This document shows, piece by piece, positions 1 through 48,390 of a stretch of 64,000 bases of DNA. The stretch is from Pecten maximus (Eukaryota). A program made the translations under genes and the position numbers. Each line of letters begins with the position of its first letter. Positions within the stretch are counted from its first letter, which is position 1. Location: assembly GCF_902652985.1 (NCBI RefSeq), contig NC_047029.1, forward strand, positions 5,456,001-5,520,000, read 5' to 3'. The notes below the pieces were generated by a model. The model was not told the DNA's origin. It saw only the letters and a list, made by a program, of their open reading frames with translations, and did not search any database.

Positions 1-1185
1 AATAAATTTATTTTAGAAGTTTTGGAAATTGTATTGAAAAGAAATGTATTTTATTTCGATAATAAATATTACCAGAAATGTAAAGGAACAGCCATGGGCA
101 CGAAGGTAGCCCCTACATATGCCACTCTGGTTCTTGGCTATCTAGAGGAAATTCTTTACAGAAATATTGAAAAAAGAGACCAAATGCAAGCAGAATATTT
201 AAGGAAGAATTTTATCAGATTTCTGGATGATTGTTTTATAATCTGGCAGTCAGATAAAGATATAGACAATTTTTTTCGGGAACTTAATATGTTATATCCT
301 GATATACAATATACCATGGAGTGTAGTTCAGTGAAACTTGCATTTCTAGATATATACGTACAAATTGAAAATGGTAAAATCGTAACTGACTTATACTGTA
401 AGACCACTGATTCACATAATTATCTTGATTTTTTCAAATCATGCTTAGCATATCAAGCTTAATATTCCATTCAGTCTAGCTTCCCGCTTGATATCGATTG
501 TCAGTGATGAAAACACTCTAAGTAAACGCTTGGAGAATTTAATCCATTATCTACGAAATCAACATTATCCGCGTGAAATTATAGACCACGGGATAGCAAG
601 AGCTAAGAAAGAGGGACCAATTCAGTTACGCACACAGGAGAAGCTAGGTTCCTGTAATATTATTCCTTTTGAAAGTACATACAACCCAAGCAATTATAAT
701 ATATTTCCTATTGTTAGAGGTAGCGAGGATTTTTTGAAAAACAGCGAAAGAATGAAATCTATACTCAATAAAAAGAAAATCATAAATTGTAAACGTCAAC
801 CAAAAAATCTTAAGCGTATCTTATGTATTCAAAATTTGATTCTGAATTAAGAGAAACATCTGTCACAAAATGTATGCAAAAGCGATGTAAAACATGCGAT
901 ATTATTATAGACTGTCAAAGTTATACATTCAAAAATGGTTTTCATTTCAAAATTAAAACTGATATGAATTGTACTTCAAAAAATGTTATATATGCTCTAA
1001 TATGCAGTAAATGTTCAGATTTTTATATTGGTCAGACTGGCATGGAATTACGAAAACGTATTACCTTACACCGCCAGCAAACAAGAACGGAACACTCTGA
1101 TGTATTACAAAGAGAGAATAAAGAAATGTTTTGCATTCAGCTAGTGAAGCCAATGTTAAATTCTGAACGTGATAGGACAAAATAA
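1..1185 (+). pseudogene. Frameshifted Penelope RT / GIY-YIG endonuclease ORF
   Basis: One protein split over ORFs 22-462, 488-850 and 823-1185, with frameshifts near 430-470 and 825. The GIY-YIG C-terminus looks internally deleted near 1095. Confidence 0.88.
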
Positions 1186-9894: not shown

Positions 9895-10515
9895 CTAGCT
9901 TACTAACCAAGGGCCCTACCTTTGTTATATTCGGGCCTTATCTTAGTAACTCAGGGCTCTAACTTTGCTATCGGGGGCCTAAACTTTGTAATTCAAGGCC
10001 CTTACACATCTTACTTAGGGCCAAACTTTGTAGCCTATTACCCTAACATAGCTACCTTAGGACCAAACTTAGTAGCCTATGACCCTTACATAGCTACCTT
10101 AGGACCAAACTTAGTAACCTATTGTCTTAACATAGCTAACCTAGGACCAAACTTAGTAATCTAAGGCACTAACATAGCTATCTTAGGACCAAACTTAGTA
10201 GCCTATGGCCCTAACATGGCTAATTAAGGGCATTACTTTGTAGCATATGGCCCTAGCTTTGATATCTTAAGGATCTGACTTAGTAGGTTAAGAACCTAGT
10301 TTACTATGTGATGTTCCTATGCTAGAACCAAAGGTTACTATGTTGGTGCCCTAAGATACATGTACTTATGCTAGGGCTCTAGGATGCTAAGTTTTTGCCC
10401 TAATATACATATGCAACTATGTAAGGGCCCTAGGTTACCAAGTTTGGGCCCAACGATACCTATTGCACAGAATAACTATGTTATGGCCCTCGATTACTAA
10501 GTTTGGGCCCTAACA
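9895..10515. repeat. Degenerate 21/42-bp tandem array that switches orientation near 10290
   Basis: Forward units ttaggaccaaacttagtagcctatgacccttacatagctacc; later units such as gattactaagtttgggccctaa are their reverse complement. Confidence 0.75.
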
Positions 10516-11613: not shown

Positions 11614-11970
11614 ATGACGACGACAGATTTCGAGCATTTGCCAATCACCTTCCAACTCCCGAACACCACGACGTCACCTGGCGCGGAAGGCAACCTGACG
11701 GAACCTGGAGAGGAGCTTACCGCGGACAGCATCATAGTTCCGGTGATCTGGGCGCTTCTGGTGATTATTGGGACAATAGGCAATGGGATAGTGATTTATA
11801 TACTGAGCAGGTATGGCGAACGGACTGTGACTAATATATATGTCGTCAATCTAGCCTTCTCCGACCTTACCTTCATCGTGATAGTACTACCAATCACGGC
11901 CATACACTTTGTTATACCCACGTACATGTTCGGAGAGGTGGTGTGCCGGATCAGTATCTACCTGATATAC
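11614..11970 (+). CDS. Neuropeptide GPCR, kisspeptin-receptor/GPR54-like (galanin/allatostatin-A receptor group); first coding exon (N-terminus, TM1, TM2, start of TM3). Exon probably starts at 11598 after ctttcag
   Basis: N-glycosylation sequons NTT/NLT, TM1 GTIGN, TM2 NLAFSD, ECL1 YMFGEVVC. 119 whole codons followed by a gtaagt donor (phase 0). Confidence 0.92.
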
Positions 11971-15371: not shown

Positions 15372-15740
15372 CCAAACCTGTAACCTTTCTCACACCAAAG
15401 CAAGAAAACTTTCTCATACTAAACCCATAACCCATTCCCACACCAAACCCATAACCCTTTCTCACACCAAAGCAAGAAAACTTTCTCATACTAAACCCAT
15501 AACCCATTCTCACACCAAACCCATAACCCTTTCTCACAACAAACCCATAACCCTTTCTCACAACAAACCCATAACCCTTTCTCACACTTAACCCATAACT
15601 GTCCTCATACAAACAAAATCGAACTCAATAAATGTTGTCACACCAAATCCAAATCCATAACCTTTCTCACAACAAATCGGACTTCCTAACCTTTCTCACA
15701 CTAAACCCATAACCTTTTTCACACCAAAGCCATTACCTTT
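15372..15740. repeat. ~24-bp minisatellite (aaacccataaccctttctcacacc), about 15 copies, decaying 3'
   Basis: Direct reading; gives the 8-aa periodic ORFs at 15352-15612. Confidence 0.9.
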
Positions 15741-17579
15741 TACAAACCGTCAACTAAAGGTCAAATGTGCGCAATTGACAAAGAGAACAAAAATCTGTTG
15801 TGTAGGAGGAAGAAAATGATAAGATCCCTGATAGGTCACACCAAACGAATCATTCTATAAAAGAACAATTTTGTGCACTACCTGCAGGGTAGTCTGTAGT
15901 GTATTATTATACCTCATTTATATAATCGCATATTATATTGGATTAAATTGATCACGTGACGGGGTAACTATAGTGACGCCCCTATTTGGAGCCTCTCTTA
16001 CATGACGGTAGGAGTTATTAGACTTTTTCTTAGAGTTCCGAGTGCCACCAGACGACATCAAACAAATGGCAACCTGCATGTTTCCCATTCGATATTAGGA
16101 TGGAATAGATAAGAAGTTTTTCCAATAAAGGATGCCTTCAACACAAAGGACGCATCAAGGTTGGCTATGAATCTTTTAAAGAGTTTTCGATGGAAAAATA
16201 TCTGATTTGAACAACATGAAACAAAGGAATATGACAATGCTCAGCGGGAATTTCGATTTTTTCCATAGATGATTTAATAAACAATAAGTTGCAATTTCTC
16301 TGAGACATGCATATCTGTTCACCCTCGCTCTCAGGAAACATGACATGCCTCGGTTGAACAAACATAATGTGTCTCCCAAAAGCAACTATATATTGTTAAT
16401 GAAATGCTGTCGTTGTTAATGAAATGCTGTTGTTGAAACTTTTCATATAATCATTATATTGCGTTCTTGTCATATTAGATTTAGGCGTTAAAGTCTTTGG
16501 ATTGCTATTTACGTTTATTATTTAAATGAGCATAGAGTAAAAATATAACACATTTCAATGTCAGGCAACCAGGTGACGCCCATTTAACAACACTTGGAAG
16601 CAAGAACGCAGAAAACCGTCCGACGTTAATCGATTTTCTTTAGAAGTTCGCCGAACACTTATCTTATCTAGACAGCAGGTTTTTGCAATCTCGCGCTTCA
16701 AGGTGTGTAATACATTGCCGCTTTGAACACTTAGTACATTCCCATAGGACTCGTATCCTTACAAGAGTACATGTTGTATAAGAAATTACTGTTTTTTATT
16801 ATCTCGTTGATTTGTATGTCCTTTCATTTAATTTACCCAAAATCAGCAAAAACTGTGGACAATTAATGTGGATTAAGGGCTTAATTCTTATTAAATACTT
16901 TACCGATATTGCTGACTGCCGACTCCCCAGTTAACCCTAACTAGACTTAATAGTCGCCGGTCGACAATTAATGAGGCCGTTCTAGTAAAATGTATCGGAA
17001 AGCGTGGTGCTATTGTTCAGGAAGGTGTTAAGTACCTATGGCCAGGGATTCTTCAACTACAACAATCGTGGGTAAATCAAATAAGATTCACGTATATGGA
17101 ATAAGAGAATGTTCGGATTCAAATCTTTATTGCTCGGTATTTCTTACTTTTTTTTTCAAAATGACATTATAGGTTACAGATTTATTGCTTTTCAAAATTA
17201 TTCAACGTAAATTTAGAACGTTGACGAAAAAAGTTTTCCATTTTAGGTTATGTTTTCTGTTGTTTTTTATTCTGCTTTTAGTTTTCTATTCTGTGTCAAT
17301 TTGTGCTTTTCGAGAAGCTGATAAGCGGACTGGTATGTGCTGTCGTGGTTGTGTCGTCGGAAAAGACGTTTTACTCTGTTTGCTCTTGAAGGCATGCGAA
17401 GAACTTCTTTGTAGTCTCCAACTACTACCAGGAGATTCCGCCTCAAAACAATCCTTGCTATTCACGCGGCGGAAATCAAATAAACAAATAAACAAACAAA
17501 TAATTATATTCTGCGTTTGCATGTCCCGTGCTTTGATACTTCTCAATCTGTTTCTAGTATTTACGTTCTGCTCTCAAAC

Positions 17580-20380
17580 TGTACTACGCTCTGCTCTCTA
17601 ACTGTACATTCGATGTTCTAGTCTGTACGTTATACTACGTTCTGCTCTCTAACTGTACATTCGATGTTCTAGTCTGTACGTTAGACTACGCTTCTGATCT
17701 CTAACTATACATTCGATGTTCTAGTCTGTACGTTAGACTACGCTTTGCTCTCTAACTTGTACATTCGATGTTCTAGTCTGTACGTTAGACTACGTTCTGA
17801 TCTCTAACTGTACATTCGATGTTCTAGTCTGTACGTTATACTACGTTCTGCTCTCTAACTGTACATTCGATGTTCTAGTCTGTACGTTATACTACGTTCT
17901 GATCTCTAACTGTACATTAGATGTTCTAGTCTGTACGTTAGACTACGTTCTGATCTCTAACTGTACATTAGATGTTCTAGTCTGTACGTTATACTACACT
18001 CTGCTCTCTAACTGTACATTAGATGTTCTAGTCTGTACGTTATACTACGTTCTGCTCTCTAACTGTACATTAGATGTTCTAGTCTGTACGTTAGACTACG
18101 CTCTGATCTCTAACTGTACATTAGATGTTCTAGTCTGTACGTTAGACAACGTTCTGCTCTCTAATTGTACATTAGATGTTCTAGTCTGTACGTTAGACAA
18201 CGTTCTGCTCTCTAATTGTATATTCGATGTTCTAGTCTGTACGTTAGACTACGCTCTGTTCTCTAACTGTACATTCAATGTTCTAGTCTGTACGTTAGAC
18301 TACTCTCTGATCTCTAATTGTACATTCGATGTTCTGGTATGTACGTTATACTACACTCTGCTCTCTAACTGTACATTCGGTGTTCTAGTCTGTACGTTGA
18401 TGGACTACCGCTTGACTCTAACTGTAACATTCGATGTCTAGGTCTGTTACGTTAGACTTACCGCTCTGATCTCTAACTAGGTACATCGATGTTCTAGTCC
18501 TGTACGTTAGACTACGCTTTGCTCTCTAACTATACATTAGATGTTCTAGTCTGTACGTTAGACTACGCTCATGATCTCTAACTGTACATTAGATTTCTAG
18601 TCTGTACGTTAGACTACGCTTTTGCGCCTCTAAACTGTACATTCGGTGTTCTAGTCTGTACGTTTAGACTACGCTATGTATCTAATTGTACATTGATGTT
18701 CGGTAATGTACGTTAGACTTGTTTTGCTCTCTAACTGTAACATTCGTGGTTCTGGTATGTCGTTAGACTAACGCTCAGCTCTCTAACGTACATTCGTGTT
18801 CTAGTCTGTACGTAACTACCTCTTATCTCTAACTGTACATAGATGTTCTAGTCTGTAATTTAAGACTACGTTTTCTGTCTCTAATTGTAACATGCGATGT
18901 TCTAGTCTGTACGTTAGACTACGCTTTGCTCTCTAACTGTACATTAGATGTTCTAGTCTGTACGTTAGACTACGCTCTGATCTCTAACTGTACATTAGAT
19001 GTTCTAGTCTGTACGTTAGACTACGCTTTGCTCTCTAACTGTACATTCGGTGTTCTAGTCTGTACGTTAGACTACGCTCTGATCTCTAATTGTACATTTG
19101 ATGTTCTGGTATGTACGTTAGACTATGTTTTGCTCTCTAACTGTACATTCGATGTTCTGGTATGTACGTTAGACTACGCTCAGCTCTCTAACTGTACATT
19201 CGGTGTTCTAGTCTGTACGTAAGACTACGCTCTGATCTCTAACTGTACATTAGATGTTCTAGTCTGTAAGTTAGACTACGTTCTGATCTCTAATTGTACA
19301 TTCGATGTTCTAGTCTGTACGTTAGACTACGCTCTGATCTCTAACTGTACATTCGATGTTCTAGTCTGTACGTTAGACTACGCTCTGATCTCTAATTGTA
19401 CATTCGATGTTCTAGTCTGTACGTTAGACTACGCTTTGCTCTCTAACTGTACATTCGGTGTTCTAGTCTGTACGTTAGACTACGCTCTGATCTCTAATTG
19501 TACATTTGATGTTCTGGTATGTACGTTAGACTATGTTTTGCTCTCTAATTGTACATTCGATGTTCTAGTCTGTACGTTAGACAACGTTTTGCTCTCTAAC
19601 TGTACATTCGATGTTCTAGTCTGTACGTTAGACTACGCTCTGATCTCTAACTGTACATTCGATGTTCTAGTCTGTACGTTAGACTACGCTCTGATCTCTA
19701 ACTGTACATTCGATGTTCTAGTCTGTACGTTAGACTACAATCTGATCTCTAACTGTACATTCGATGTTCTAGTCTGTACGTTGGACTATGTTTTGCTCTC
19801 TAACTGTACATTCGGTGTTCTAGTCTGTACGTTAGACTACGCTCTGATCTCTAATTGTACATTTGATGTTCTGGTATGTACGTTAGACTATGTTTTGCTC
19901 TCTAATTGTACATTCGATGTTCTAGTCTGTACGTTAAACTACGCTCTGCTCTCTAACTGTACATTCGATGTTCTAGTCTGTACGTTAGACTACGCTCTGA
20001 TCTCTAATTGTACATTCGATGTTCTAGTCTGTACGTTAGACTACGCTCTGATCTCTAACTGTACATTCTGTGTTTTAACTGCTTTATATACTACGCCGTG
20101 CTCTCTAATATTACATTGGGTGTTCTAGACCGTACGCTATACTACGCTGCGCATAGTAATTGTACACTCGGTGCTCTAGACTGTACATTATGCTATACTA
20201 TTTTCTCTCTAATTGTACATTAGGTGTTCTCTGGTTTTTACGTAATACTGCGCTCTTCTGTCTTATTGTGCATTCGGTTTTCTCTGGTCTTTACGTAATA
20301 CTGCGCTCTTCTCTCTAATTGTACATTCGGTGTTCTCTAAACCGTACGTTATACCGCTCTCTGCTCAATAATTGTATATA
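17580..20380. repeat. 51-bp tandem array, about 50 copies plus degenerate 3' flank
   Basis: Unit ctctaactgtacattcgatgttctagtctgtacgttagactacgctctgat; 17-aa periodic ORFs; internal inverted repeat tagtct/agacta. Confidence 0.97.
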
Positions 20381-22666
20381 TATTCCCTTTTCTGAATTTA
20401 CACGGACGGTTCTCTTATCTATATGTTCCCTATTCTAATGTGTAAGTCGATCTCTGATCTGTACGTTCCTTATTTTAATTTGTAGGACTGTTCTCTGATC
20501 TGTACGTTCTGTGTTCGCTAATTAAATCACAGCTGCAATGCACACCCGACATCAAATGCATCCCCTGTAAGCCTTATACTCAATAAAACTATGGAATGCA
20601 TTCTAATTGTGATATATGGAACCTTTACTCCACTGTCGCAGCAGTTTACACTATTTTTATGCCAGTTAGACGCATATTGTGATCTTGTATCCCGTTGGTT
20701 TATATTACAATGTCGTATAGTGATACATGTAGTTGTCCCAGCCAAATAAATCGTCATTAGGTGTTCTGCTATTCCGCGTACGACTTTAATAATTAAGACT
20801 GCAGAACGCTGCAGCAATCAAATAAACAGTGGTACCCAATCGTGGAGGTTAAATACTTGAGACGTAAATATTGTACAATGACTACGTGTATTACTGTGAT
20901 TACTCAGAAGACATGTTATGTAGTTCTTCTTTTTACACTGGAAATATTTCACACAAAAAATCTTTGATAAATAAATATGTGTCTTAATCATCAACTGATA
21001 GTAACTACCCGTTACACATCTATTTTCAGTAACAAAACTGTAAGTTTTTTTTTTTAACACAACAGTCATATAAATATACTTGCTCACTTTATGTGAAAAA
21101 ACAATCTTCACTTCAGTTTGTCAGTAATAGATCTGTAAACATTCCATGATATTACAGCGTTCCGGATTAAGAAGGTTTATATGTAGTCCTTCAGGTCATT
21201 TGACTCGCCTCGTACCCTTTTTATTTCTTTCTTGTTTTTGTCCAGATTTTGTGTTGACGTCCTCATAAATCTCGCTGATAGCTTCCGTGTTGAGCTCAAT
21301 ATGAGTGTCCTTCTTTCGAATATTTACAACCAACTTACCAGATTTATCCTATGGGAGCCCGTAGCTGCCTAAGCTGATAATCCAAATCATATAAAACAGT
21401 TTCAATATTATCCACTTAACATGCATCTGAACTTGTGATTCTACTGTTCAAAATTGCTCGTTGACCTTTTTCATACTACCCACAATTTGACAAAGTGTCC
21501 TCCTGTTATCAGCTTCTATACCCTCCATCGTCTTGGCAGCATGAGTTGATGTTTCTATATTGTAAACAAAAATATAAATGGTCTTAGAAGTAAACAAAGT
21601 TGTACTGATGTCTCTAGTTGCTGCGTCAGCTAGATCGGTCAGCAGTCCTCCTTTCACCGGGTATAGCAGTGACATGTATATTTAATTAAGTTCAGGCAAC
21701 AGTATAACATAACATATATAATATAGATACGGAAGGCATAAACGTTGACTCCAAATATTCGTCAGTGATGTTAAGATTCGCGAGTAAAAAGATTTAAAAT
21801 GGCTCTCGGTGGATGTATAAATACAGAACATGTTATGCGCTGACCCCGTAACCAAATCATCCTGTTTGATTTTGAATTTTGATATAACAATAGTAAAAAC
21901 ATCTTAAGACTTGGGCGACCGTTCAAACCAAATCACATGAATGAAATATCGTATCAGTAGAACTGCACGAGATGACAGCAAGATGTCGGTTGTACTCTTC
22001 ACTTGCACGCGGTATTACAGTGCATACTTTGATAAATTCTCTGTGCCTGGATCAATAGCAAATGGTTGTTCTAAGATAAATCCTCCAAATTTTATCTGGA
22101 TTTAGACGAATTCTTCAGTGCGTCATCACACAGTGTAACTATGAAAAGTACATCGATGTATGATTTAAAGACAATTAGTTACACAACACACTCTTACCAT
22201 ACTCACTGACGTAATTTTATATGTGTTTATTGTCCTTTCAAGATATTTAGGCTATATGATGACTGTATTAAATGGGAACAACTTAAAAGTCTTCTCTGGA
22301 ATGTGTCACTTCACTTCACTGTAAATTATGTAAAGCTCTTAAAACAAGTGATACCGTTGTTATGATTTTAAATTCTACTCAATAAAAATTTCACATGGTA
22401 TTAAGACACAATCTTGCAGGTTTAAACACGGAATTAATGAATGTAACAGGAGCTCAATAATTATAAGTTTTTTTTAATTACTGATCATGTGACGCATGTC
22501 GGAATCCTACGCAAGGTGGAGATTGATTTGAATCATTTTTCGTCCTATCGAGAATTTAAGTTAATTCATGGAGCGACGTACTCAAAGCGCACTGCTCCAT
22601 TGAATTGGTTGCCAAAATTACACAGAATTTTTAAAGCACTCATGGTTTATGTAGGACAACGGGTGC

Positions 22667-25514: not shown

Positions 25515-26696
25515 TATACCGTTAGGTCAGAAAGTTTACATTTTTTTACAATATCGATTATTCATTATGACGTCATCTTTAACGAGTTTCAGCTGTCTTT
25601 TCCTGCACCAAGGGAGATGTAGAGAGTGCCAATGCAATATCGAATTTATTAAACGAGTTTGATAATTTGATATTTGACGAGCCTTTTAAGAGGATATCAT
25701 AAAATTTTTTATTAAACTAATAAAGCAATACATTTTCAAAGTGTAGGGATGTCCAATAATCGTAAGAAATATATGTAATATCACTATTGTGACGTCATAG
25801 TATATATATGAGGACGCACCATTGTCAGTTTAAAGCCTCTCTTATATCAAAATTAATTTGGAAGTATTCACTTATATTTCATAAATATGAGTTATGCAAT
25901 AAACAGAATATTACACTCCTGGCTATGTAATATGAAATATATTTCAATAACTGTATATAGGCCACTCGCCTGAATGCTTGTGGTACATATATATCAAATT
26001 ATTGAACGGGGTTTCGCTACACTTCACATGGGGTAGAGATAGATAGCTGAAACGCGTTATGACGTCAAAATAAATTATTTCCATGGTGTCATTGTATTGT
26101 TTCCGTGAGTTCATAAAACAAATCCTTTAATTTCTATATTCAAATTGAAATCACGACCCTTGAAATTTAAAGAATGTAAAGAATGTACAACAAACCACAG
26201 CTCGCAGTTTAGTTTAAATGATTAAATATCATTTTGAAAGAAATACAACCCCGAATCATTGGCCTGCATTATACTTCAGCTAATGCATGCTATTTGTTCA
26301 TGTGTAATAAACCATTAATCTTTTTTTGGAATCGTTTACTTAATTATAGAATACAAGACGACATCTAAACTGCTGGTTTGTTCCAGAAGATATGATTAAG
26401 CATACCTAATTTTGCTTTAATTATACTTGTAAATACGTGATATTGTCGGTGTTTGTCGACATCAGTCCTTTCACACTTTTGGTTGGTTTAAGCTATTTCA
26501 TATACATGTACAATCATTTTATCCACTATCTATTGGCCAAAATGACCATCTCTTGTGGTGATGGAACAGTTAAGAATATTACAACACGAATATAATATGT
26601 TTATAACATATCAGAAACGACATTTAATGCGTTTTGAAAAAAAAAACTTTATTTATTTACAACAATTGCGAAACAAGTTATGCGTGTTATAAAGTC

Positions 26697-29600
26697 ATCA
26701 CAGTCCACGTCAATTGTCATGTTTTGTACTCATTTCAAATCACCATGCACGCTACCTGTCCTGCATTATACTCAATACAGATCAACTTCACGACACCATT
26801 CTTACGTTTTACTCATTACAGATCACCCTCAACGTCACCTGTCGTACTTATTACATATCACCCTCCACGTCACCTGTCTTACTCATTACAGATCACCCTC
26901 CACGTCACCCATCTTACTCATTACAGATCACCCTCCACGTCACCCGTCTTACTCATTACAGATCACCCTCCACGTCACCCGTCTTACTCATTACAGATCA
27001 CCCTCCACGTCACCTGTCTTACTCATTACAGATCACCCTCCACGTCACCCGTCTAACTTATTACAGATCACCCTCCACGTCACCTGTCTTACTCATTACA
27101 GATCACCGTCTACGTCACCCGTCTTACTCATTACAGATCACCCTCTACGACACCCGTCTTACTCATTACAGATCACCCTCCACGTCACCCGTCTAACTTA
27201 TTACAGATCACCCTCCACGTCACCCGTCTTACTCATTACAGATCACCCTCCACGTCACCCATCTTACTCATTACAGATCACCCTCCACGTCACCAGTCTT
27301 ACTCATTACAGATCACCCTCCACGTCACCAGTCTTACTCATTACAGATCACCCTCCACGTCACCCGTCTTACTCATTACAGATCACCCTCCACGTCACCT
27401 GTCTAACTCATTACAGATCACCCTCCACGTCACCCATCTTACTCATTACAGATCACCCTCCATGTCACCCTGTCTTACTCATTACAGATCACCCTCCACG
27501 TCACCCGTCTTACTCATTACAGATCACCCTCCACGTCACCCGTCTTACTCATTACAGATCACCCTCCACGTCACCCGTCTTACTCATTACAGATCACCCT
27601 CCACGTCACCCGTCTTACTCATTACAGATCACCCTCCACGTCACCCGTCTTACTCATTACAGATCACCCTCCACGTCACCCGTCTTACTCATTACAGATC
27701 ACCCTCCACGTCACCCTGTCTTACTCATTACATATCACCCTCCACGTCACCCATCTTACTCATTACAGATCACCTTCCACGTCACCCGTCTTACTCATTA
27801 CAGATCACTCTCCACGTCACCCATCCTACTCATTACATATCACCCTCCACGTCACCTGTCTTACTCATTACAGATCACTCTCCACGTCACCAGTCTTACT
27901 TATTACAGATCACCCTCCACGTCACCCGTCTTACTCATTACAGATCACCCTCCACGTCACCCGTCTTACTCATTACAGATCACCCTCCACGTCACCCGTC
28001 TTACTCATTACAGATCACCCTCCACGTCACCCGTCTAACTCATTACAGATCACCCTCCACGTCACCCGTCTTACTTATATATCACCCTCCACGTCACCCG
28101 TCTTACTTATTACAGATCACCCTCCACGTCACCCGTCTTACTCATTACAGATCACCCTCCACGTCACCCGTCTAACTCATTACAGATCACCCTCCACGTC
28201 ACCCGTCTTACTTATATATCACCCTCCACGTCACCCGTCTTACTCATTACAGATCACCCTCCACGTCACCTGTCTTACTCATTACATATCACCCTCCACG
28301 TCACCCATCTTACTTATTACATATCACCCTCCACGTCACCTGTCTTACTCATTACAGATCACCCTCCACGTCACCCATCTTACTCATTACAGATCACCCT
28401 CCACGTCACCCGTCTTACTCATTACAGATCACCCTCCACGTCACCCGTCTTACTCATTACAGATCACCCTCCACGTCACCTGTCTTACTCATTACAGATC
28501 ACCCTCCACGTCACCCGTCTAACTTATTACAGATCACCCTCCACGTCACCTGTCTTACTCATTACAGATCACCCTCTACGTCACCCGTCTTACTCATTAC
28601 AGATCACCCTCTACGTCACCCGTCTTACTCATTACAGATCACCCTCCACGTCACCCGTCTAACTTATTACAGATCACCCTCCACGTCACCCGTCTTACTC
28701 ATTACAGATCACCCTCCACGTCACCCATCTTACTCATTACAGATCACCCTCCACGTCACCAGTCTTACTCATTACAGATCACCCTCCACGTCACCAGTCT
28801 TACTCATTACAGATCACCCTCCACGTCACCCGTCTTACTCATTACAGATCACCCTCCACGTCACCTGTCTAACTCATTACAGATCACCCTCCACGTCACC
28901 CATCTTACTCATTACAGATCACCCTCCATGTCACCCTGTCTTACTCATTACAGATCACCCTCCACGTCACCCGTCTTACTCATTACAGATCACCCTCCAC
29001 GTCACCCGTCTTACTCATTACAGATCACCCTCCACGTCACCCGTCTTACTCATTACAGATCACCCTCCATGTCACCCGTCTTACTCATTACAGATCACCC
29101 TCCACGTCACCCGTCTTACTCATTACAGATCACCCTCCACGTCACCCGTCTTACTCATTACAGATCACCCTCCACGTCACCCTGTCTTACTCATTACATA
29201 TCACCCTCCACGTCACCCATCTTACTCATTACAGATCACCCTCCACGTCACCCGTCTTACTCATTACAGATCACTCTCCACGTCACCCATCCTACTCATT
29301 ACATATCACCCTCCACGTCACCTGTCTTACTCATTACAGATCACTCTCCACGTCACCAGTCTTACTTATTACAGATCACCCTCCACGTCACCCGTCTTAC
29401 TCATTACAGATCACCCTCCACGTCACCCGTCTTACTCATTACAGATCACCCTCCACGTCACCCGTCTTACTCATTACAGATCACCCTCCACGTCACCCGT
29501 CTAACTCATTACAGATCACCCTCCACGTCACCCGTCTTACTTATATATCACCCTCCACGTCACCCGTCTTACTTATTACAGATCACCCTCCACGTCACCC

Positions 29601-32600
29601 GTCTTACTCATTACAGATCACCCTCCACGTCACCCGTCTAACTCATTACAGATCACCCTCCACGTCACCCGTCTTACTTATATATCACCCTCCACGTCAC
29701 CCGTCTTACTCATTACAGATCACCCTCCACGTCACCCATCTTACTCATTACAGATCACCCTCCACGTCACCAGTCTTACTCATTACAGATCACCCTCCAC
29801 GTCACCAGTCTTACTCATTACAGATCACCCTCCACGTCACCCGTCTTACTCATTACAGATCACCCTCCACGTCACCTGTCTAACTCATTACAGATCACCC
29901 TCCACGTCACCCATCTTACTCATTACAGATCACCCTCCATGTCACCCTGTCTTACTCATTACAGATCACCCTCCACGTCACCCGTCTTACTCATTACAGA
30001 TCACCCTCCACGTCACCCCGTCTTACTCATTACAGATCACCCTCCACGTCACCCTGTCTTACTCATTACATATCACCCTCCACGTCACCCATCTTACTCA
30101 TTACAGATCACCTTCCACGTCACCCGTCTTACTCATTACAGATCACTCTCCACGTCACCCATCCTACTCATTACATATCACCCTCCACGTCACCTGTCTT
30201 ACTCATTACAGATCACTCTCCACGTCACCAGTCTTACTTATTACAGATCACCCTCCACGTCACCCGTCTTACTCATTACAGATCACCCTCCACGTCACCC
30301 GTCTTACTCATTACAGATCACCCTCCACGTCACCCGTCTTACTCATTACAGATCACCCTCCACGTCACCCGTCTAACTCATTACAGATCACCCTCCACGT
30401 CACCCGTCTTACTTATATATCACCCTCCACGTCACCCGTCTTACTTATTACAGATCACCCTCCACGTCACCCGTCTTACTCATTACAGATCACCCTCCAC
30501 GTCACCCGTCTAACTCATTACAGATCACCCTCCACGTCACCCGTCTTACTTATATATCACCCTCCACGTCACCCGTCTTACTCATTACAGATCACCCTCC
30601 ACGTCACCTGTCTTACTCATTACATATCACCCTCCACGTCACCCATCTTACTTATTACATATCACCCTCCACGTCACCCGTCTTACTTATTACATATCAC
30701 CCTCCACGTCACCAGTCTTACTTATTACAGATCACCCTCCACGTCACCCGTCTTACTCATTACAGATCACCCTCCACGTCACCCGTCTTACTCATTACAG
30801 ATCACCATCCACGTCACCCTGTCTTACTCATTACAGATCACCCTCCACGTCACCTGTCTAACTCATTACAGATCACCCTCCACGTCACCAGTCTTATTCA
30901 TAACAGATCACCCTCCACGTCACCCATCTTACTCATTACAGATCACCCTCCACGTCACCAGTCTTACTTATTACAGATCACCCTCCACGTCACCCATCTT
31001 ACTTATTACATATCACCCTCCACGTCACCCATCTTATTCATTACAGATCACCCTCCACGTCACCCATCTTACTTATTACAGATCACCCTCCACGTCACCC
31101 GTCTTACTCATTACAGATCACCCTCCACGTCACCCGTCTTACTTATTACATATCACCCTCCACGTCACCCGTCTTACTCATTACAGATCACCCTCCACGT
31201 CACCCGTCTTACTCATAACAGATCACCCTCCACGTCACCCGTCTTACTCATTACAGATCACCCTCCACGTCACCCGTCTTACTCATTACAGATCACCCTC
31301 CACGTCACCCTGTCTTATTCATTACAGATCACCCTCCACGTCACCCCGTCTTATTCATTACATATCACCCTCCACGTCACCCATCTTACTCATTACAGAT
31401 CACCCTCCACGTCACCCATCTTACTCATTACAGATCACCCTCCACGTCACCCGTCTTACTCATTACAGATCACCCTCCACGTCACCCATCTTACTCATTA
31501 CAGATCACCCTCCACGTCACCCATCTTACTCATTACATATCACCCTCCATGTCACCCGTCTTACTCATTACCTATCACCCTCCACGTCACCCATCTTACT
31601 CATTACAGATCACCCTCCACGTCACCCATCTTACTCATAACAGATCACCCTCCACGTCACCCGTCTTACTCATTACATATCACCCTCCACGTCACCAGTC
31701 TTACTTATTACAGATCACCCTCCACGTCACCCATCTTACTCATTACATATCACCCTCCACGTCACCAGTCTTACTTATTACATATCACCCTCCACGTCAC
31801 CCGTCTTATTCATAACATATCACCCTCCACGTCACCCGTCTAACTTATTACAGATCACCCTCCACGTCACCCGTCTTACTCATTACAGATCACCCTCCAC
31901 GTCACCAGTCTTACTTATTACATATCACCCTCCACGTCACCCATCTTACTCATTACAGATCACCCTCCACGTCACCCATCTTACTTATTACAGATCACCC
32001 TCCACGTCACCCGTCTTACTCATTACAGATCACCCTCCACGTCACCAGTCTTACTTATTACAGATCACCCTCCACGTCACCCGTCTTACTTATTACAGAT
32101 CACCCTCCACGTCACCCGTCTAACTTATTACTTATCACCCTCCACGTCACCCGTCTTACTCATTACAGATCACCCTCCACGTCACCTGTCTTACTCATTA
32201 CATATCACCCTCCACGTCACCCGTCTAACTCATTACAGATCACCCTCCACGTCACCCGTCTTACTCATTACAGATCACCCTCCACGTCACCCGTCTTACT
32301 CATTACAGATCACCCTCCACGTCACCCGTCTTACTCATTACAGATCACCCTCCACGTCACCTGTCTTACTCATTACAGATCACTCTCCACGTCACCCTGT
32401 CTAACTTATTACAGATCACCCTCCACGTCACCTGTCTTACTCATTACAGATCACCCTCTACGTCAACCGTCTTACTCATTACAGATCACCCTCCACGTCA
32501 CCTGTCTTACTCATTACAGATCACCCTCCACGTCACCCGTCTAACTCATTACAGATCACCCTCCACGTCACCCGTCTTACTCATTACAGATCACCCTCCA

Positions 32601-35084
32601 CGTCACCTGTCTTACTCATTACAGATCACCCTCCACGTCACCCGTCTAACTCATTACAGATCACCCTCCACGTCACCCGTCTTACTCATTACATATCACC
32701 CTCCACGTCACCCGTCTAACTCATTACAGATCACCCTCCACGTCACCCGTCTTACTCATTACAGATCACCCTCCACGTCACCTGTCTTACTCATTACAGA
32801 TCACCCTCCACGTCACCCGTCTAACTCATTACAGATCACCCTCCACGTCACCCGTCTTACTCATTACAGATCACCCTCCACGTCACCCCGTCTTACTCAT
32901 TACATATCACCCTCCACGTCACCTGTTTTATTCATTACAGATCACCCTCCACGGCACCTGTCTTACTCATTACAGATCACCCTCCACGTCACCCGTCTAA
33001 CTCATTACAGACCACCCTCCACGTCACCTGTCTTACTCATTACAGATCACCCTCCACGGCACCTGTCTTACTCATTACAGATCACCCTCCACGTCACCCG
33101 TCTTACTCATTACATATCACCCTCCACGTCACCCGTCTTACTCATAACAGATCACCCTCCACGTCACCCTGTCTTACTCATTACATATCACCCTCCACGT
33201 CACCTGTCTTACTCATTACAGATCACCCTCCACGTCACCCGTCTTACTCATTACAGATCACCCTCCACGTCACCTGTCTTACTTATATATCACCCTCCAC
33301 GTCACCCGTCTTACTCATTACAGATCACCCTCCACGTCACCCGTCTTACTCATTACATATCACCCTCCACGTCACCCATCTTACTTATTACAGATCACCC
33401 TCCATGTTACCTGTCTTACTTATTACAGATCACCCTCCACGTCACCCGTCTAACTCATTACAGATCACCCTCCACGTCACCCTGTCTTACTCATTACATA
33501 TCACCCTCCACGTCACCAGTCTTACTTATTACAGATCACCCTCCACGTCACCCGTCTTACTCATTACAGATCACCCTCCACGTCACCCGTCTTACTCATT
33601 ACAGATCACCCTCCACGTCACCCGTCTAACTTATTACAAATCACCCTCCACGTCACCTGTCTTACTCATTACAGATCACCCTCCACGTCACCCGTCTTAC
33701 TTATTACAGATCACCCTCCACGTCACCCGTCTTACTCATTACAGATCACCCTCCACGTCACCCGTCTTACTCATTACAGATCACCCTCCACGTCACCAGT
33801 CTTATTCATTACAGATCACCCTCCACGTCACCCATCTTACTCATAACAGACCACCCTCCACGTCACCTGTCTTACTCATTACAGATCACCCTCCACGTCA
33901 CCCGTCTTACTCATTACAGATCACCCTCCACGTCACCCGTCTTACTCATTACAGATCACCCTCCACGTCACCCATCTTACTCATTACAGATCACCCTCCA
34001 CGTCACCCATCTTACTTATTACAGATCACCCTCCACGTCACCCGTCTTACTCATTACAGATCACCCTCCACGTCACCCGTCTTACTCATTACAGATCACC
34101 CTCCACGTCACCCATCTTACTCATTACAGATCACCCTCCACGTCACCCATCTTACTCATTACAGATCACCCTCCACGTCACCCGTCTTACTCATTACAGA
34201 TCACCCTCCACGTCACCCGTCTAACTCATTACAGATCACCCTCCACGTCACCCGTCTAACTCATTACAGACACCCTCCACGTCACCCGTCTTACTCATTA
34301 CAGATCACCCTCCACGTCACCCGTCTAACTCATTACAGATCACCCTCCACGTCACCCGTCTAACTCATTACAGACACCCTCCACGTCACCCGTCTTACTC
34401 ATTACAGATCACCCTCCACGTCACCCGTCTTACTCATTACAGATCACCCTCCACGTCACCCGTCTTACTCATTACAGATCACCCTCCACGTCACCCGTCT
34501 TACTCATTACAGATCACCCTCCACGTCACCAGTCTTATTCATTACAGATCACCCTCCACGTCACCCATCTTACTCATAACAGACCACCCTCCACGTCACC
34601 TGTCTTACTCATTACAGATCACCCTCCACGTCACCCATCTTACTCATTACAGATCACCCTCCACGTCACCTGTCTAACTCATTACAGATCACCCTCCACG
34701 TCACCTGTCTTACTCATTACAGATCACTCTCCACGTCACCCATCTTACTCATTACATATCACCCTCCACGTCACCTGTCTTACTCATTACAGATCACCCT
34801 CCACGTCACCCATCTTACTCATTACAGATCACCCTCCACGTCACCTGTCTTACTCATTACAGATCACCCTCCACGTCACCCTGTCTTACTTATTATAGAT
34901 CACCCTCCACGTCACCCATCTTACTCATTACATATCATCCTCCACGTCACCCGTCTTACTCATTACAGATCACCCTCCACGTCACCCGTCTTAATTATTA
35001 CAGATCACCCTCCATGTCACCTGTCTTACTTATTACATATCACCCTCCACGTCACCTGTCTTACTCATTACAGATCACCCTCCA
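26697..35084 (+). repeat. 35-bp tandem array (~236 copies, ~8.3 kb) derived from the intron/exon-2 junction of the GPCR
   Basis: Unit actcattacag-atcaccctccacgtcacccgtctt versus the exon junction ttgccag-gtcaccctccacgccacctgtcttac at 35106-35138. Confidence 0.97.
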
Positions 35085-35112
35085 GTTAATTTGTCTTACT
35101 TTGTCTTGCCAG

Positions 35113-35248
35113 GTCACCCTCCACGCCACCTGTCTTACGTTGATGGCCATGACGATAGACCGATACTTCGCCATCGTCTTTCCTATACAGTCTATGAACT
35201 GGCGGAACGCTCTCGTGGCCACCATTGTCAGCGTTGCCGTATGGATCG
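35113..35248 (+). CDS. GPCR second coding exon (TM3 with DRY, ICL2, TM4), 136 nt
   Basis: ttgccag acceptor, VTLHATCLTLMAMTIDRYFAIVFPI...VSVAVWI, gtgagt donor; phase 0 to phase 1, compatible with both neighbouring exons. Confidence 0.95.
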
Positions 35249-35383
35249 GTGAGTTCTGTAATCTGATTGACATATAATGGTCTTGTGAATCCACGTGTTT
35301 AAGATTATTGTCTGAGTATAGCTACAACCGTTGAAATAATACAGATATGGATAACAATCATAATCAAAGGTGTATCTCTTACT

Positions 35384-35508
35384 CATACCGCAGCCTCCCA
35401 AAACACACATACGCACTCGCTACACGCATACATGTCGCACGCATGGGAGGCCGTCCTTAAATGACCTTAGCTGTTAATAGGACGTTAAACAAAATAAACC
35501 AAACCAAA
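35384..35508 (+). mobile_element. 5'-truncated copy of the long SINE with a perfect 12-bp target-site duplication
   Basis: TSD gtatctcttact at 35372-35383 and 35509-35520; roughly 90% identical to the reverse complement of 22667-22795. Confidence 0.92.
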
Positions 35509-35883
35509 GTATCTCTTACTTTATTTCAGTGTACATAGCATGCTTCTTTTTAACTTAAGATATTTCTTATGGTCACTATGAAATGGGGGCGCCATGACAG
35601 GTAGCATGATATGACCTCAACATGTATCTTTGAAATGTCACATTTTTCTCAATAATTGCTAAATTATGCACAAACGCAAAATTAAATATCAGTTTATATA
35701 ATTATATCAAAAACTCCCGTGAAAATATGCATTCACTCATTACGTGCAAGTTTAAAAAAATATTCAGTAATCTTCCCAAAATCAAGAAAAAGAGTGCCTT
35801 GATCTTTGTCAGAAGAATATTTCACAAATGAAATCATTTTGACCGTTAAATTTGTCCTCGCCAGTTTGTATTTGAAGAATAAT

Positions 35884-38345
35884 TATATTTGTTTGTATAT
35901 ATACGACAGAAGATATATTTTGTTTATATACGACATACATGATATATTGTGTCTGTATATACGACATACAAGATATATTGTGTCTGTGTATATGACAGAA
36001 GATATATTGTGTTTGTATATACGACAGAAGATATACGTAGTGTGTCTGTATATACGACATACAAGATATATTTTGTTTGTATATACGACAGAAGATATAT
36101 TTTGTTTGTATATACGACAGAAGATATATTGTGTCTGTATATATGACATACAAGATATATTGTGTCTGTATATATGAAATACAAGATATATTGTGTTTGT
36201 ATATACGACATACAAGATATATTTGGTTTGTATATACGACATACAAGATATATTGTGTTTGTATATACGACACAAGATATACGTAGTGTGTCTGTATATA
36301 CGACAGAAGATATATTGTGTTTGTATATACGACAGAAGATATATTTTGTTTGTATATATGACATACAAGATATTTTGTGTTTGTATATACGACAGAAGAT
36401 ATATTTTGTTTGTATATACGACAGAAGATATATTGTGTTTGTATATACGACATACAAGATATTTTGTGTTTGTATATACGACAGAAGATATATTTTGTTT
36501 GTATATACGACAGAAGATATATTGTGTTTGTATATACGACAGAAGATATATTGTGTTTGTATATATGACATACAAGATATTTTGTGTTTGTATATACGAC
36601 AGAAGATATATTTTGTTTGTATATACGACAGAAGATATATTGTGTTTGTATATACGACATACAAGATATTTTGTGTTTGTATATACGACATAGATATATA
36701 TTGTGTTTGTATATATGACATACAAGATATTTTGTGTTTGTATATACGACAGAAGATATATTTTGTTTGTATATACGACAGAAGATATATTGTGTTTGTA
36801 TATACGACATACAAGATATATTGTGTTTGTATATACGACATACAAGATATATTGTGTCTGTATATATGACATACAAAATATATTGTGTTTGTATATACGA
36901 CATACAAGATATATTTGGTTTGTATATATGACATACAAGATATATTGTGTCTGTATATACGACATACAAAAGATATTGTGTTTGTATATACGACATACAA
37001 GATATATTTGGTTTGTATATATGACATACAAGATATATTGTGTCTGTATATACGACATACAAAATATATTGTGTCTGTATATATGACATACAAGATATAT
37101 TGTGTCTGTATATACGACAGAAGATATATTGTGTCTGTATATACGACATACAAAATATATTGTGTCTGTATATATGACATACAAGATATATTTGGTTTGT
37201 ATATACGACATACAAAATATATTGTGTCTGTATATATGACATACAAGATATATTGTGTCTGTATATACGACAGAAGATATATTGTCTGTATATACGACAT
37301 ACAAGATATATTGTGTTTGTATATATGACATACAAAATATATTGTGTCTGTATATACGACATACAAAATATATTGTGTCTGTATATACGACATACAATAT
37401 ATATTGTGTCTGTATATATGACATACAAAATATATTGTGTCTGTATATACGACATACAAAATATATTGTGTCTGTATATACGACATACAATATATATTGT
37501 GTCTGTATATACGACATACAATATATATTGTGTCTGTATATATGACATACAAGATATATTTGGTTTGTATATACGACATACAAGATATATCGTGTTTGTA
37601 TATACGACAGAAGATATATTGTGTCTGTATATATGACATACAAGATATATTGTGTCTGTATATATGACATACAAGATATATTTGGTTTGTATATACGACA
37701 TACAAGATATATTGTGTTTGTACATTTTGTATATACGACATACAAGATATATTGTGTCTGTATATATGACATACAAGATATATTTGGTTTGTATATACGA
37801 CATACAAGATATATTGTGTTTGTACATTTTGTATATACGACATACAAGATATATTGTGTCTGTATATATGACATACAAGATATATTGTGTCTGTATATAT
37901 GACATACAAGATATATTGTGTTTGTACATTTTGTATATACGACATACAAGATATATTGTGTCGGTATATATGACATACAAGATATATTGTGTCTGTATAT
38001 ATGACATACAAGATATATTTTGTTTGTATATACGACATACAAGATATATTGTGTCTGTATATATGACATACAAGATATATTGTGTCTGTATATATGACAT
38101 ACAAGATATATTGTGTCTGTATATATGACATATAAGATATATTGTGTCTGTATATACGACATACAAGATATATTGTGTCTGTATATATGACATACAAGAT
38201 ATATTGTGTCTGTATATATGACATACAAGATATATTGTGTCTGTATATATGACATACAAGATATATTGTGTCTGTATATACGACATACAAGATATATTGT
38301 GTCTGTATACAATGTATATGACATAGATATATTTGGTTTGCATAT
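35884..38345. repeat. 29/31-bp AT-rich tandem array, about 80 copies
   Basis: Units tatattgtgtctgtatatacgacatacaaga (31 bp) and tatattgtgtttgtatatacgacagaaga (29 bp). Confidence 0.97.
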
Positions 38346-39605: not shown

Positions 39606-41180
39606 ATGTTTTCATTCAAACCTCAGTTTCGAAATGATAAGGTTTTGGAGGTTTTGAAAGTTATCTGTAAACTCCTCTATATTCTCACATATAATATATA
39701 TTGTTTCATGGTTGCTGAGGGGTTAAAGTTAACATTTACTTTCTGTAATCGCTAAGAATACTTTTGGGGAAATATCTTTTTTAGACTTAGACTTGCTACG
39801 CAAAATGTAATATAACGTTTTTGATGTTAGTGTTGAAAGACATCAGTAAACTCCTTTATTATTGTACTTGGGTGTTAACATTTGGTTTTGGGGTAGTGGT
39901 AGTTGTTTTAACTATAATTTCCCGGAGTCAAACATGTTAACTACAATACAAAACCAAACACAAACTATGTCTACCTTTGTATATTGCAATATAATTTTGC
40001 TTAAATATCGCTATCTTTGGACATACCATCTAGTTGATTAACTCATTCCCTGATTCTAGTGTGAGCTATAGTGATATATAGTTTGAGGCGAGCTTTACAC
40101 CAAAATTGGTACTCTTTTTCAAGCAGGTTCTTCATATTATTGAGGTGGTAATATTTTGTCATCATCTAATAGACTGCAACAATATTTTTAAGAATCCGAC
40201 GTGCAACGTCCGTGCAGCATGGCTATCAGGCATCAACGCGAAAAGGTTAAAATGGGCGACAGTTAAAGATACAATGTACTCCAAATGGGCAGAAATTATA
40301 GCGAATATCAAGTAAGACTATCATTTTTCCGCGAAGAAATCTGATTACTTGTACTGTTGAAACAAAATAGGCTATTAGCTTTACTCGGTAAAAGACTAAC
40401 CCTGTAATATCGATTTCCAGGACAGCTAAGGTTTTGCGCGGTGAAAAAGAAGGGAATAAGTTATCGAAAATATATTTCTTAAAGGTACCGAATCAAGCCC
40501 CTATCCATCTAACTTAAACGCGACAACTTATGTAAAAGTACATGTTGAATATAACCCCGGAAAATGCTTTGAACGTAAAGGGTAACCATCCCTAATTTCC
40601 CTTGGATAGTTCCCACCCATTTTCTACCCGAGTATTTCCGTTTATCTTATGTTAGAAACATACCTAGTCGATCATTTGATTTGTTCTGAATACAATTGCC
40701 CTTTATATACCAATTTTCCTTAGACTGATTTCGTCTATCACTCGGGCGAAACACGATTGTCGAGGCAGTACGTGTAGATCTCTTAACCTTATCCCCAGAC
40801 AGTGTTACGGCTTCTCACATCGTTAGGCGTGGGACGGACCTATCCGTCTTTCAAACAATCATTGACAGTTTATCGAGAGACGTTGACGTGTAATTCGCTT
40901 CACTAAATAACCACCGTTCATCGTCTGACCTCGTGATAAATTCATCAAGTATTTCGTTCAGAAATTTTTAGTTTTGGATTTTGGTCATTGTTTAGTCTAG
41001 GATTTGTCTTCTGTATTGATGCCTTCATTAACCAAGCCTAAGCGACGCTACTCCACCGGTATAGATAATCATTTCGGAAATGATACTTTCAACTGACATA
41101 AAGGTAACGCAGTAAACAGATTTCTTAGTACCTCCTGTCAATAGCTTTGTGCATTTAAGGAAGGCCTTACATGTGTGCTG

Positions 41181-41394
41181 GGGGGCCGCAGTGGCCGAGT
41201 GGTTAAGGTGTCATGACACTTTATCACCAGCCTTCCTTCTCTTGGTTGCGATTTCGAAACCTACGTGGGGCAGTTGCCAGGTACTGACTGTAGGCCAGTG
41301 TTTTTTCTCCGGGTACTCCGGCTTTCCTCCACCTCCAAAACCTGGCACGTCCTTAAATGACCCTGCATGTTAATAGGACGTTAAACAAAAAAAA
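41181..41394 (+). mobile_element. tRNA-derived V-domain-like SINE
   Basis: A box tggccgagtgg, B-box-like tttcgaaacc, ttttctccgggtactccggctttcctcc core, shared tail; near-identical to 48169-48390. Confidence 0.88.
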
Positions 41395-46750: not shown

Positions 46751-48168
46751 TTTGAATTTGCGTAATATATCATTACTTAGCGAAATCTTTGTTTCGATAT
46801 AGTTGATATATGATCAGTCTGACCACTATTTCTTGATAGGTTCATGCCAAGGTGTTTATGTCAACAGACTTTTGTAAGAAGAGTGTTACTCATAAGGAAA
46901 TACTGGGTTTTTTAGTAGAACGATACAGCTGTATGATGTCCCTAGCACAACTATATGCTATTTCTATCTGTCGTGTGTACATCAAGATCAGGTAACGCAG
47001 AATTAAGAAATGTAGTCCTAATCCGTTTTAGAATGTTTCTCACATTTTGTTTGAAGGAGTAACATCTTACGTATGATAGTCGTTTTGGTTTCCGGCACAC
47101 AAGCGAAAATAATACCAGGTAAAGAAAAAGAAATTTAGGTTCGGGATGGCTTGGTAAATGTATGCTATCAATTGTAAACTGTCTTTTTGATCCTGTGGTC
47201 GTTATCCTTGTCGTCTACCAACGTTTTTGTCCTGCTTCTCTCTTGTTGTTCTTTTTTGTTGGTCGCAGGAATAGTGAACCCCTGCAGTAAACATAGTCAA
47301 AATACCTATAGTTATTTATTAGAACGTTTTTTTTCATCACATCAGATGCTGGATAAATGTTTCCGGATTTCTTTACGTAAGCACATATCGTTTGTTTGTA
47401 GTATTTGAACAACAAATGTCAATATCAATACGAGAAATTACATAACACCTAACTAGTGACCTCTTCTGTCATATTTCGGTGTTATCACATGCACGTGAGG
47501 TTTGGCGTTATTAATCCTGATTCCTCTCTCAATGGTGAATTCTTTCCCTATGTTGTTGAGGTGAGTTCAGCAAGTAATTTATTCTAATGTGTATAACGAC
47601 CCCTGCTGCGTCCTAAATAATTAATGAAGTCTTTTGTAACAAGTAAAGTGTATACGGTGTATAAAAATACCAAAGGCTGTGGAAATACTTAAACACGGTG
47701 TAAACACTGATTATGAAATAGACTTTGATAAATTAGGTATAGTTAATTGCAAAAGCGTTAAGTGAGGTGCAGCTGTTCTTGTTGGTACTCTCTAGGTTCC
47801 ACCGAAGCTCAAGCAAGTGCATACTATATATCTAAACAAATAATTAGCAAACAACCTATCGGATCAAATCACTTCATCAATCACCACTATGTGATAAAGT
47901 CAATCGACGCCGTTGAACAGGATGGAGATAGATAGGTTTACGTTTAGATAGATAAAAATGCAGTGCATATCGGATATTGTGAAAATAATCACCTGCTGTG
48001 CCCTTCTTTGTGTTGTATTAGATTACTCTAATGGCTAAACATGATGATGTTCCTCTGTGTCATCTGCTGGAAGTTGCCGAAATGACACAAAAATATAGCC
48101 GATATACTGTTTGCAATTTTTAATTATTTTCATTTTTTTGTTTGCTAATGTCATCCTGTCTTCATATA

Positions 48169-48390
48169 GGGGGCCGCAGTGGCCGAGTGGTTTAGGTGTC
48201 CCGACACTTTAACACTATCCCTCCACCTCTGGGTTGCGAGTTCGAAACCTACGTGGGGCAGTTGCCAGGTACTGACCGTAGGCCGGTGGTTTTTCTCCGG
48301 GTACTCCGGCTTTCCTCCACTTCCAAAACCTGGCACGTCCTTAAACGACCCTGGATGTTAATAGGACGTTAAACAAAAACAAACAAACAA
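48169..48390 (+). mobile_element. tRNA-derived V-domain-like SINE, intact
   Basis: A box tggccgagtgg, B box gttcgaaacc, V-like core, tail ending (aaac)n. Confidence 0.9.

What the first reader, a model, noticed from the sequence alone, without database searches (positions are those of the whole stretch)
26697..26860. Fossil record of the array's birth: 42-42-41-bp units with more exon sequence and lost AGs precede the 35-mers
Seen: exon-like starts fall at 26697, 26739, 26781, 26822 and 26857 (spacing 42, 42, 41, 35). The 26739 unit reads atc acc atg cac GCT acc tgt (ITMHATC), keeping the exon's Ala codon where the amplified unit has Val. The next unit keeps cttacgtt as in the exon (cttacgttg). 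The 26739 unit has an acceptor-like ttttgtactcatttcAA with AA in place of AG. Inference: a frame-preserving ~42-bp duplication across the splice site came first, then a ~7-bp slip between ttac microhomologies made the 35-mer. The 5'-most copies, which would inherit the ancestral intron end, were inactivated, so the functional acceptor effectively moved 8 kb downstream.
Basis: partly seen in the sequence, partly recalled or inferred. Interest (0 to 1): 0.7.

Follow-up and report, generated by a model that had tools for sequence, protein, structure and literature searches.

The report
Old edge copies of splice-site repeat
An 8.4-kb repeat made of copies of one exon's start sits in an intron of a scallop-like bivalve's receptor gene and is spliced out of the messenger RNA; its longer, decayed edge copies likely preserve the original 42-base duplication, but this kind of repeat ("mirage") is already known.

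Summary
In detail: units of 42, 42, 41 and 35 bp precede 236 more units, and all score above 36,812 background windows. The array lies in intron 1 of a galanin/kisspeptin-receptor-like GPCR and occurs only at this locus. One spliced RNA contig joins exon 1 to 35113, skipping it.

A contig from another species has no repeat unit at this exon. Its intron end fits the tail of the first unit (26712-26738; p about 0.004-0.05) and not the live acceptor.

Three points weaken the reading. The 5' units are less exon-like than the 35-mers over the shared 26 nt. The Ala codon is in one unit only. Only one AG is visibly lost, and 197 of 240 unit starts keep AG, so AG loss does not explain today's splice choice.

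A second individual appears to carry a 74-bp duplication of the live acceptor.

This is a large new member of the amphioxus "mirage" minisatellite kind. The scan has noted such arrays in other genomes.

The parts
11614..11970 (+). Exon 1 CDS of a galanin/kisspeptin-receptor-like GPCR; donor GT at 11971
   Evidence: 84% identical to P0001; its last 15 nt are the RNA loose end before 35113
26632..26681 (.). End of a dispersed repeat, stopping 15 bp upstream of U1
   Evidence: 39 other matches among 40 scored of 482 candidates, most ending at query base 432
26697..26738 (+). U1, 42 bp: unit-like head, and a tail (about 26712-26738) that is likely the ancestral intron end, with AA in place of AG
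   Evidence: outgroup match
26739..26780 (+). U2, 42 bp decayed exon-start copy (ITMHATC), ends in CAG
26781..26821 (+). U3, 41 bp; keeps CTTACGTT and has three TTAC at 7-bp spacing; ends in CAG
26822..26856 (+). U4, first 35-bp unit, moderately decayed
26857..35073 (+). Homogeneous core of 235 units (211 of 35 bp, 15 of 36, 7 of 32, 2 of 34): 26 nt of exon start plus 9 nt of intron end; the 35-bp units average 1.1 mismatches to consensus
   Evidence: all 115 genome matches of a 27-mer lie here
35074..35112 (+). Last unit, 39 bp, long and decayed; holds the live acceptor, with a branch-point-like TTAAT (A at -24), a T-rich tract and CAG
   Evidence: use shown by the RNA contig; the branch point is a motif match only
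35113..35248 (+). Exon 2 (VTLHATC...VWI); donor GT at 35249
   Evidence: RNA contig X6 matches 35113-35248 with 0 differences; same start in P0001
60871..61091 (+). Exon 3
   Evidence: its first 30 nt are the RNA loose end behind 35248

Best explanation
This is a locus-specific minisatellite built from the intron 1/exon 2 boundary of a GPCR gene and spliced out of the mRNA; it likely began as a 42-bp slippage duplication, whose old copies likely survive at both edges while a 7-bp-shorter unit took over the middle. SHOWN: the gene structure, the unit anatomy, the array's confinement to this locus, the use of the last acceptor, and the lack of 35-mer-like sequence in one related species. INFERRED, in order: (1) Slippage between TTG/TGTC microhomologies 42 bp apart copied exon +1..+30 plus the last 12 intron bases. 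(2) The native intron end stayed 5' (the U1 tail) and lost its AG, which would remove the strongest rival acceptor. (3) One inner copy lost 7 bp between TTAC repeats and was amplified about 235-fold by unequal exchange. (4) Edge copies escaped homogenisation and decayed. (5) The last copy is chosen because it adjoins the only nearby donor and has the best branch point and tract. (6) Exchange with the exon start continues, which keeps the 35-mers close to the exon. The array is most likely a neutral by-product.
For: U1-U4 and the last unit score above all 36,812 background windows. All units start with A where the exon has G; V is shared with ortholog P0001 and paralog L002, so the units share one origin. 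The long units match exon +27..+30 at 11 of 16 letters (p 0.0003-0.001 if independent, which they are not). TTAC has 7-bp periodicity in U3. X14 (organism C, 12 differences over 35110-35260) has one contig with 1,570 nt upstream, and only 1 record of that run was laid on a stretch holding a 35-mer. Its 30-letter intron end scores best against the U1 tail in 4 of 4 scoring schemes: 3, 5, 22 and 4 of 700 YAG controls and 2, 3, 22 and 5 of 444 pyrimidine-rich controls score as high. The live acceptor is equalled by 474-700 of 700. RNA contig X6 joins exons 1-2-3. Of 10 sites scanned, only the live acceptor has a YTRAY motif between -18 and -40. X5 record 15 begins with the live acceptor's letters and runs into a 35-mer tail. 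Edge exclusion from homogenisation is described for mirages (PMC3087553) and seen in this intron's 51-bp array.
Against: There is one outgroup, 30 letters are visible, and the match needs a 7-nt gap. Unanchored local scores differ little (U1 18, last unit 14), and one scoring scheme gives only p 0.03-0.05. U1's head is unit-like (14 of 16 against the 35-mer, with the unit-type A and T), which a pure native intron end should not be; this is unexplained. U1 and the last unit share GT(C/T)AAT and pair in the tree at 56%, which favours rival 1. The 35-mers are closer to the exon than their supposed ancestors (2-3 differences against 6-7; Poisson p 0.05-0.12). The tree is uninformative. The RNA evidence is one contig of depth 4.3, and contigs drop rare forms.
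Confidence: 0.62

Rival explanations
1. Both edges are copies of the ancestral intron end. The first duplication took about 30 intron bases plus about 12 exon bases, so the live acceptor and its branch point descend from the old intron end as much as U1 does. The exon-rich 42/35-mers arose later between them.
For: U1 and the last unit both read unit-head then GT(C/T)AAT(T)TGTC..TTTGT. The last unit aligns better to U1 (33) than to U2 or U3 (24 each), and the two are sisters at 56%. The five differences between the last unit and the T-variant 35-mer over +1..+26 all lie within 7 nt (alignment).
Against: The outgroup end matches the live acceptor no better than chance. The last unit matches the exon 8 of 8 at +19..+26 in ungapped register and scores highest against a 35-mer (39). 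No intron-end copy is seen upstream of U1, although a dispersed repeat ends 15 bp away.
Confidence: 0.22
2. Ordinary edge decay only. The 35-mer is the original unit, the edge copies gained insertions while decaying, and the outgroup match to U1 is chance between AT-rich intron ends.
For: The 35-mers are the closest to the exon. U3 nests among 35-mers at 19-30% support. The 51-bp array in the same intron also ends in decayed units of other lengths (53, 57, 43, 40, 41). The weakest scheme gives p about 0.05.
Against: The extra bases continue the exon (+27..+30) in four edge units at both ends. Three adjacent units share the same +7 length.
Confidence: 0.1
3. The array is a functional set of alternative acceptors that makes longer receptor isoforms or tunes expression by nonsense-mediated decay.
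For: 197 AG-preceded starts, 64 of them in frame and 4 in frame and stop-free (34723, 34828, 34969, 35074).
Against: The only RNA contig seen skips the array. The in-frame share (64 of 197) is the one third expected by chance. Insertions would fall in the TM3 region (position recalled from class A GPCR topology). Lancelet mirages are reported not to disturb splicing (PMC3087553, PMC3902484).
Confidence: 0.06

Closest known systems
Amphioxus 'mirage' minisatellites (Adh3, troponin C, globins BflGb6/BflGb9, PGBD5); passages read in PMC3087553 and PMC3902484; the original Adh3 paper was not read
   Same: Tandem copies of an intron 3' end plus exon start (as in BflGb6). Many but not all units keep the AG, and normal mRNA is made. 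Concerted evolution acts inside the cluster while boundary units are excluded. Haplotypes differ in structure.
   Different: A bivalve. About 240 units over 8.4 kb, against 3-7 in the globin and PGBD5 cases read. The edge units keep a different, longer period, and an outgroup points to the old intron end.
Human CBS 844ins68 (PMC2630376, passages)
   Same: A duplication of an intron/exon junction creates two sites, and splicing favours the downstream one, giving normal mRNA. The 74-bp X5 allele has the same layout.
   Different: A single 68-bp duplication with no array. Site use in the X5 allele is untested.
Human F7 IVS7 37-bp VNTR (PMC1557585, abstract and outline)
   Same: A minisatellite spanning an exon boundary, whose pseudo-sites are silent although potentially functional.
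   Different: It spans a donor, not an acceptor, and site choice there is explained by 5'-to-3' scanning.

Membership tests
Mirage minisatellite | Tandem units that span an exon-intron boundary of the host gene | tested here: met
   The unit is exon +1..+26 (20-24 of 26 identical) plus 9 nt ending in CAG
Mirage minisatellite | Array abuts the authentic exon and is specific to the locus | tested here: met
   Ends at 35112, exon starts at 35113; 115 of 115 genome matches of a 27-mer are in the window
Mirage minisatellite | Many units keep splice signals, yet normal mRNA is made | tested here: met
   197 of 240 starts follow AG; one RNA contig joins exons 1-2-3. Rare isoforms are not excluded
Mirage minisatellite | Concerted evolution inside, boundary units excluded | tested here: met
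   Cost to consensus is 13, 12, 11 and 5 at the 5' edge, 12.5 at the 3' edge, and 1.1-1.7 as block means inside
Mirage minisatellite | Length or structure polymorphism between haplotypes | tested here: inconclusive
   X5 contig pieces imply a 74-bp duplication on one haplotype; copy numbers cannot be read from contigs
Mirage minisatellite | Somatic instability (reported for Adh3) | not testable with these tools
   Needs single-molecule data from several tissues
Intron gain by tandem duplication | A new donor/acceptor pair splits the exon or creates a new exon | tested here: not met
   The exon 1-2 junction is at the same place as in paralog L002, and the RNA contig shows no new exon
Dispersed satellite or transposon-derived repeat | The unit occurs at other loci | tested here: not met
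   0 exact 27-mer matches outside the window; diverged copies were not searched

The most novel reading that the evidence does not exclude
Splice-site turnover by a minisatellite ratchet, caught at three stages in one gene. The ancestral acceptor was disabled (AG to AA) and pushed 8.4 kb upstream. Today's branch point and pyrimidine tract were built from a copy of the exon's own coding sequence. The cycle is restarting, because one living allele has duplicated the live acceptor by 74 bp. Intron ends could thus be replaced wholesale with no change in the protein.
Probability: 0.35. Interest if true: 0.55.

Novelty: new member of a known kind. Interest (0 to 1): 0.32.

Why it matters
Mirage arrays are known and appear harmless, so the class is not new. 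This case is useful because it is very large, has RNA showing which acceptor is used, and has an outgroup pointing to the old intron end. It also appears to have a segregating allele with two near-identical acceptors 74 bp apart. That allele is a natural test of how a 3' splice site is chosen among repeats, and the locus shows how a minisatellite's unit length changes after birth.

Tried and rejected
Tree of units with exon and paralog: 32 rows and 26 columns, more parameters than sites and mostly low supports, so it is uninformative.

Ala codon as an ancestry marker: rejected. U2 also shares ATG and GCT with the paralog's exon, which I treat as chance because P0001 has Leu at that codon.

Further decayed units or an old acceptor upstream of 26697: none found.

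X4 loose ends next to the array: they read GATC-GATC at the joint and were rejected as ligation chimeras (my recall of Hi-C junctions). X4's contig over 35073-35370 has 0 differences and may be the assembled animal, so it is not counted as independent.

X12 (organism B): covers only a common repeat at 35384-35510 and gives no information.

X5's exon contig appears but not, so that output is filtered.

Receptor identity (KISS1R E 7e-58, GALR2 E 2e-55) was left unresolved.

Paper searches listed no mirage paper on a bivalve, but one search showed only 20 of 99 papers and subscription journals are not held. No supplements were read. The search of earlier findings near this place returned nothing.

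Full report
Setting. The window holds three exons of a class A GPCR on the + strand: exon 1 CDS 11614-11970, exon 2 35113-35248 and exon 3 60871-61091. Exon 1 is 84% identical to P0001, a Mizuhopecten yessoensis 'galanin receptor type 2-like' protein and the only hit at E <= 1e-15 among 143 candidates. P0001 continues VTLHATC exactly as exon 2 does. Its best solved relatives are KISS1R and GALR2 with near-equal scores. The host is therefore a scallop-like bivalve. A paralogous exon (L002, 66% identical) lies on the same contig and shows no such repeat in the 500 bases upstream that I read.

The array. Tandem Repeats Finder reports a 35-bp array at 26805-35084. Segmenting from 26857 gave 236 units of 54 types: 211 of 35 bp, 15 of 36, 7 of 32, 2 of 34 and a final 39-bp unit at 35074-35112. 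The unit is exon +1..+26 followed by 9 nt ending in CAG. An exact 27-mer has 115 matches in the genome, all 115 in this window, so the array is local.

Checking the observation. The starts, the spacings, ITMHATC, CTTACGTT and the AA tail are all present. U1-U4 score 35-55 against the consensus, and none of 36,812 background windows exceeds 23. The title overstates two things. First, over +1..+26, U1-U3 match the exon at 17, 20 and 19 positions, whereas 35-mers match 20-24; codon 5 is Ala only in U2. Second, only one AG is visibly lost. U3 and U4 follow intact CAG, and 197 of 240 starts follow AG.

Evidence that 42 came first. U1, U2, U3 and also the last unit carry exon-like letters at +27..+30 (TTTG, ATTA, GTTT, TTTG against GTTG), 11 of 16 matches (the units share ancestry, so the nominal p of 0.0003-0.001 overstates it). 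The U1 tail and the exon share TGTC and TTG at lag 42, which gives a unit of 30 exon plus 12 intron bases. U3 has TTAC at 22, 29 and 36, and removing one 7-bp step gives the 35-mer. Edge decay itself is ordinary: the 51-bp array in the same intron ends in decayed units of 53, 57, 43, 40 and 41 bp, and exclusion of boundary units is described for lancelet mirages (PMC3087553, passages).

The outgroup test. Of 24 runs listed I laid 5. X14 (organism C) has a 2,840-nt contig matching 35110-35260 with 12 differences and running 1,570 nt further upstream. It was the only record of that run laid on a stretch holding a 35-mer, so this species shows no 35-mer array. Its 30 visible intron letters were aligned, anchored at the 3' end, to nine window sites under four scoring schemes. 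The U1 tail scored best every time: 3, 5, 22 and 4 of 700 YAG controls (sampled from 2,894) and 2, 3, 22 and 5 of 444 pyrimidine-rich controls scored as high. The core is 11 of 13 identical letters, then a 7-nt gap, then the last bases. The live acceptor was equalled by 474-700 of 700 controls, and the stretch before U1 by 343-700. Against this: it is one outgroup, the match needs a gap, and unanchored local scores are close (18 against 14). I read this as moderate support that 26712-26738 is the old intron end.

Splicing. Contig X6 matches 35113-35248 with no difference, and its loose ends are the end of exon 1 and the start of exon 3. The mRNA therefore skips the array and uses the last AG. 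That site has a YTRAY motif at -24 and a T-rich tract with one A, whereas the 35-mers' branch-like motifs lie at -7/-11 or beyond -40 (motif matches, not tested function). With nearly 200 intact AGs skipped, choice most likely rests on site quality and closeness to the exon-2 donor (inference from exon definition, established knowledge), not on loss of 5' AGs. Loss of the U1 AG may have mattered early, when it was the strongest rival; that is inference. Four upstream starts are in frame and stop-free. No use of them was seen, but contigs drop rare forms.

Ongoing exchange. In X5, another sample with SNPs against the window, a 97-nt contig of depth 11.2 (single-copy depth 26.8) begins with the letters of 35106-35113, runs through a unit and a second last-unit, and re-enters the exon. 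I infer a 74-bp duplication of the live acceptor on one haplotype; the three differing letters were only partly listed, and a library chimera is not excluded.

Loose ends. U1's head is unit-like although its tail looks native. U1 and the last unit share GT(C/T)AAT, which keeps alive the rival that both edges copy the old intron end. A dispersed repeat ends at 26681, 15 bp before U1, and may have cut off older sequence.

Comparison. The array meets the tested defining features of amphioxus mirages (PMC3087553 and PMC3902484, passages). CBS 844ins68 is a single-copy analogue (PMC2630376, passages; the passage says 'donor', but the junction is intron 7/exon 8). F7 IVS7 is the donor-side analogue (PMC1557585, abstract). 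The scan holds 24 notes with my search words in at least 13 genomes (8 shown, unchecked).

Verdict. It is a new member of a known kind; interest 0.32.

Noticed in passing
window 35039-35128 (run X5, record 15): A contig implies one haplotype with a 74-bp duplication holding the live acceptor and the exon start fused to a 35-mer tail; using the upstream copy would shift the frame.
   Followed up: partly
window 26632-26681: End of a dispersed repeat (482 candidates, 40 scored) that stops sharply 15 bp before the array.
   Followed up: partly
window 35372-35559: A very common repeat (35384-35510). In X5 one contig joins 35371 to 35560 with 87 other letters, so the stretch is polymorphic.
   Followed up: no
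window 26857-31000: Higher-order structure: a block of about 42 units recurs twice and partly a third time (unit labels), pointing to recent large unequal exchanges.
   Followed up: no
window 17583-20512: A 51-bp array (about 54 copies) in the same intron; its 3' edge units are decayed and of other lengths.
   Followed up: partly
window 35884-38309; 9997-10286; 15372-15748: Further minisatellites of 31, 42 and 24 bp in or near the same gene.
   Followed up: no
window 26739-26759 and L002:1501-1521: U2 reads ITMHATC and the paralog's exon VTMHATC; three of U2's differences from its own exon match the paralog. Probably chance.
   Followed up: partly
window 1-1182: Open frames with reverse-transcriptase-like and GIY-YIG-like motifs, resembling a Penelope-type element fragment (motifs recalled, not searched).
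   Followed up: no
window 41116-41370 and 48154-48369: Two copies of a short interspersed repeat; loose ends at 35452 suggest that the repeat in intron 2 belongs to the same family.
   Followed up: no
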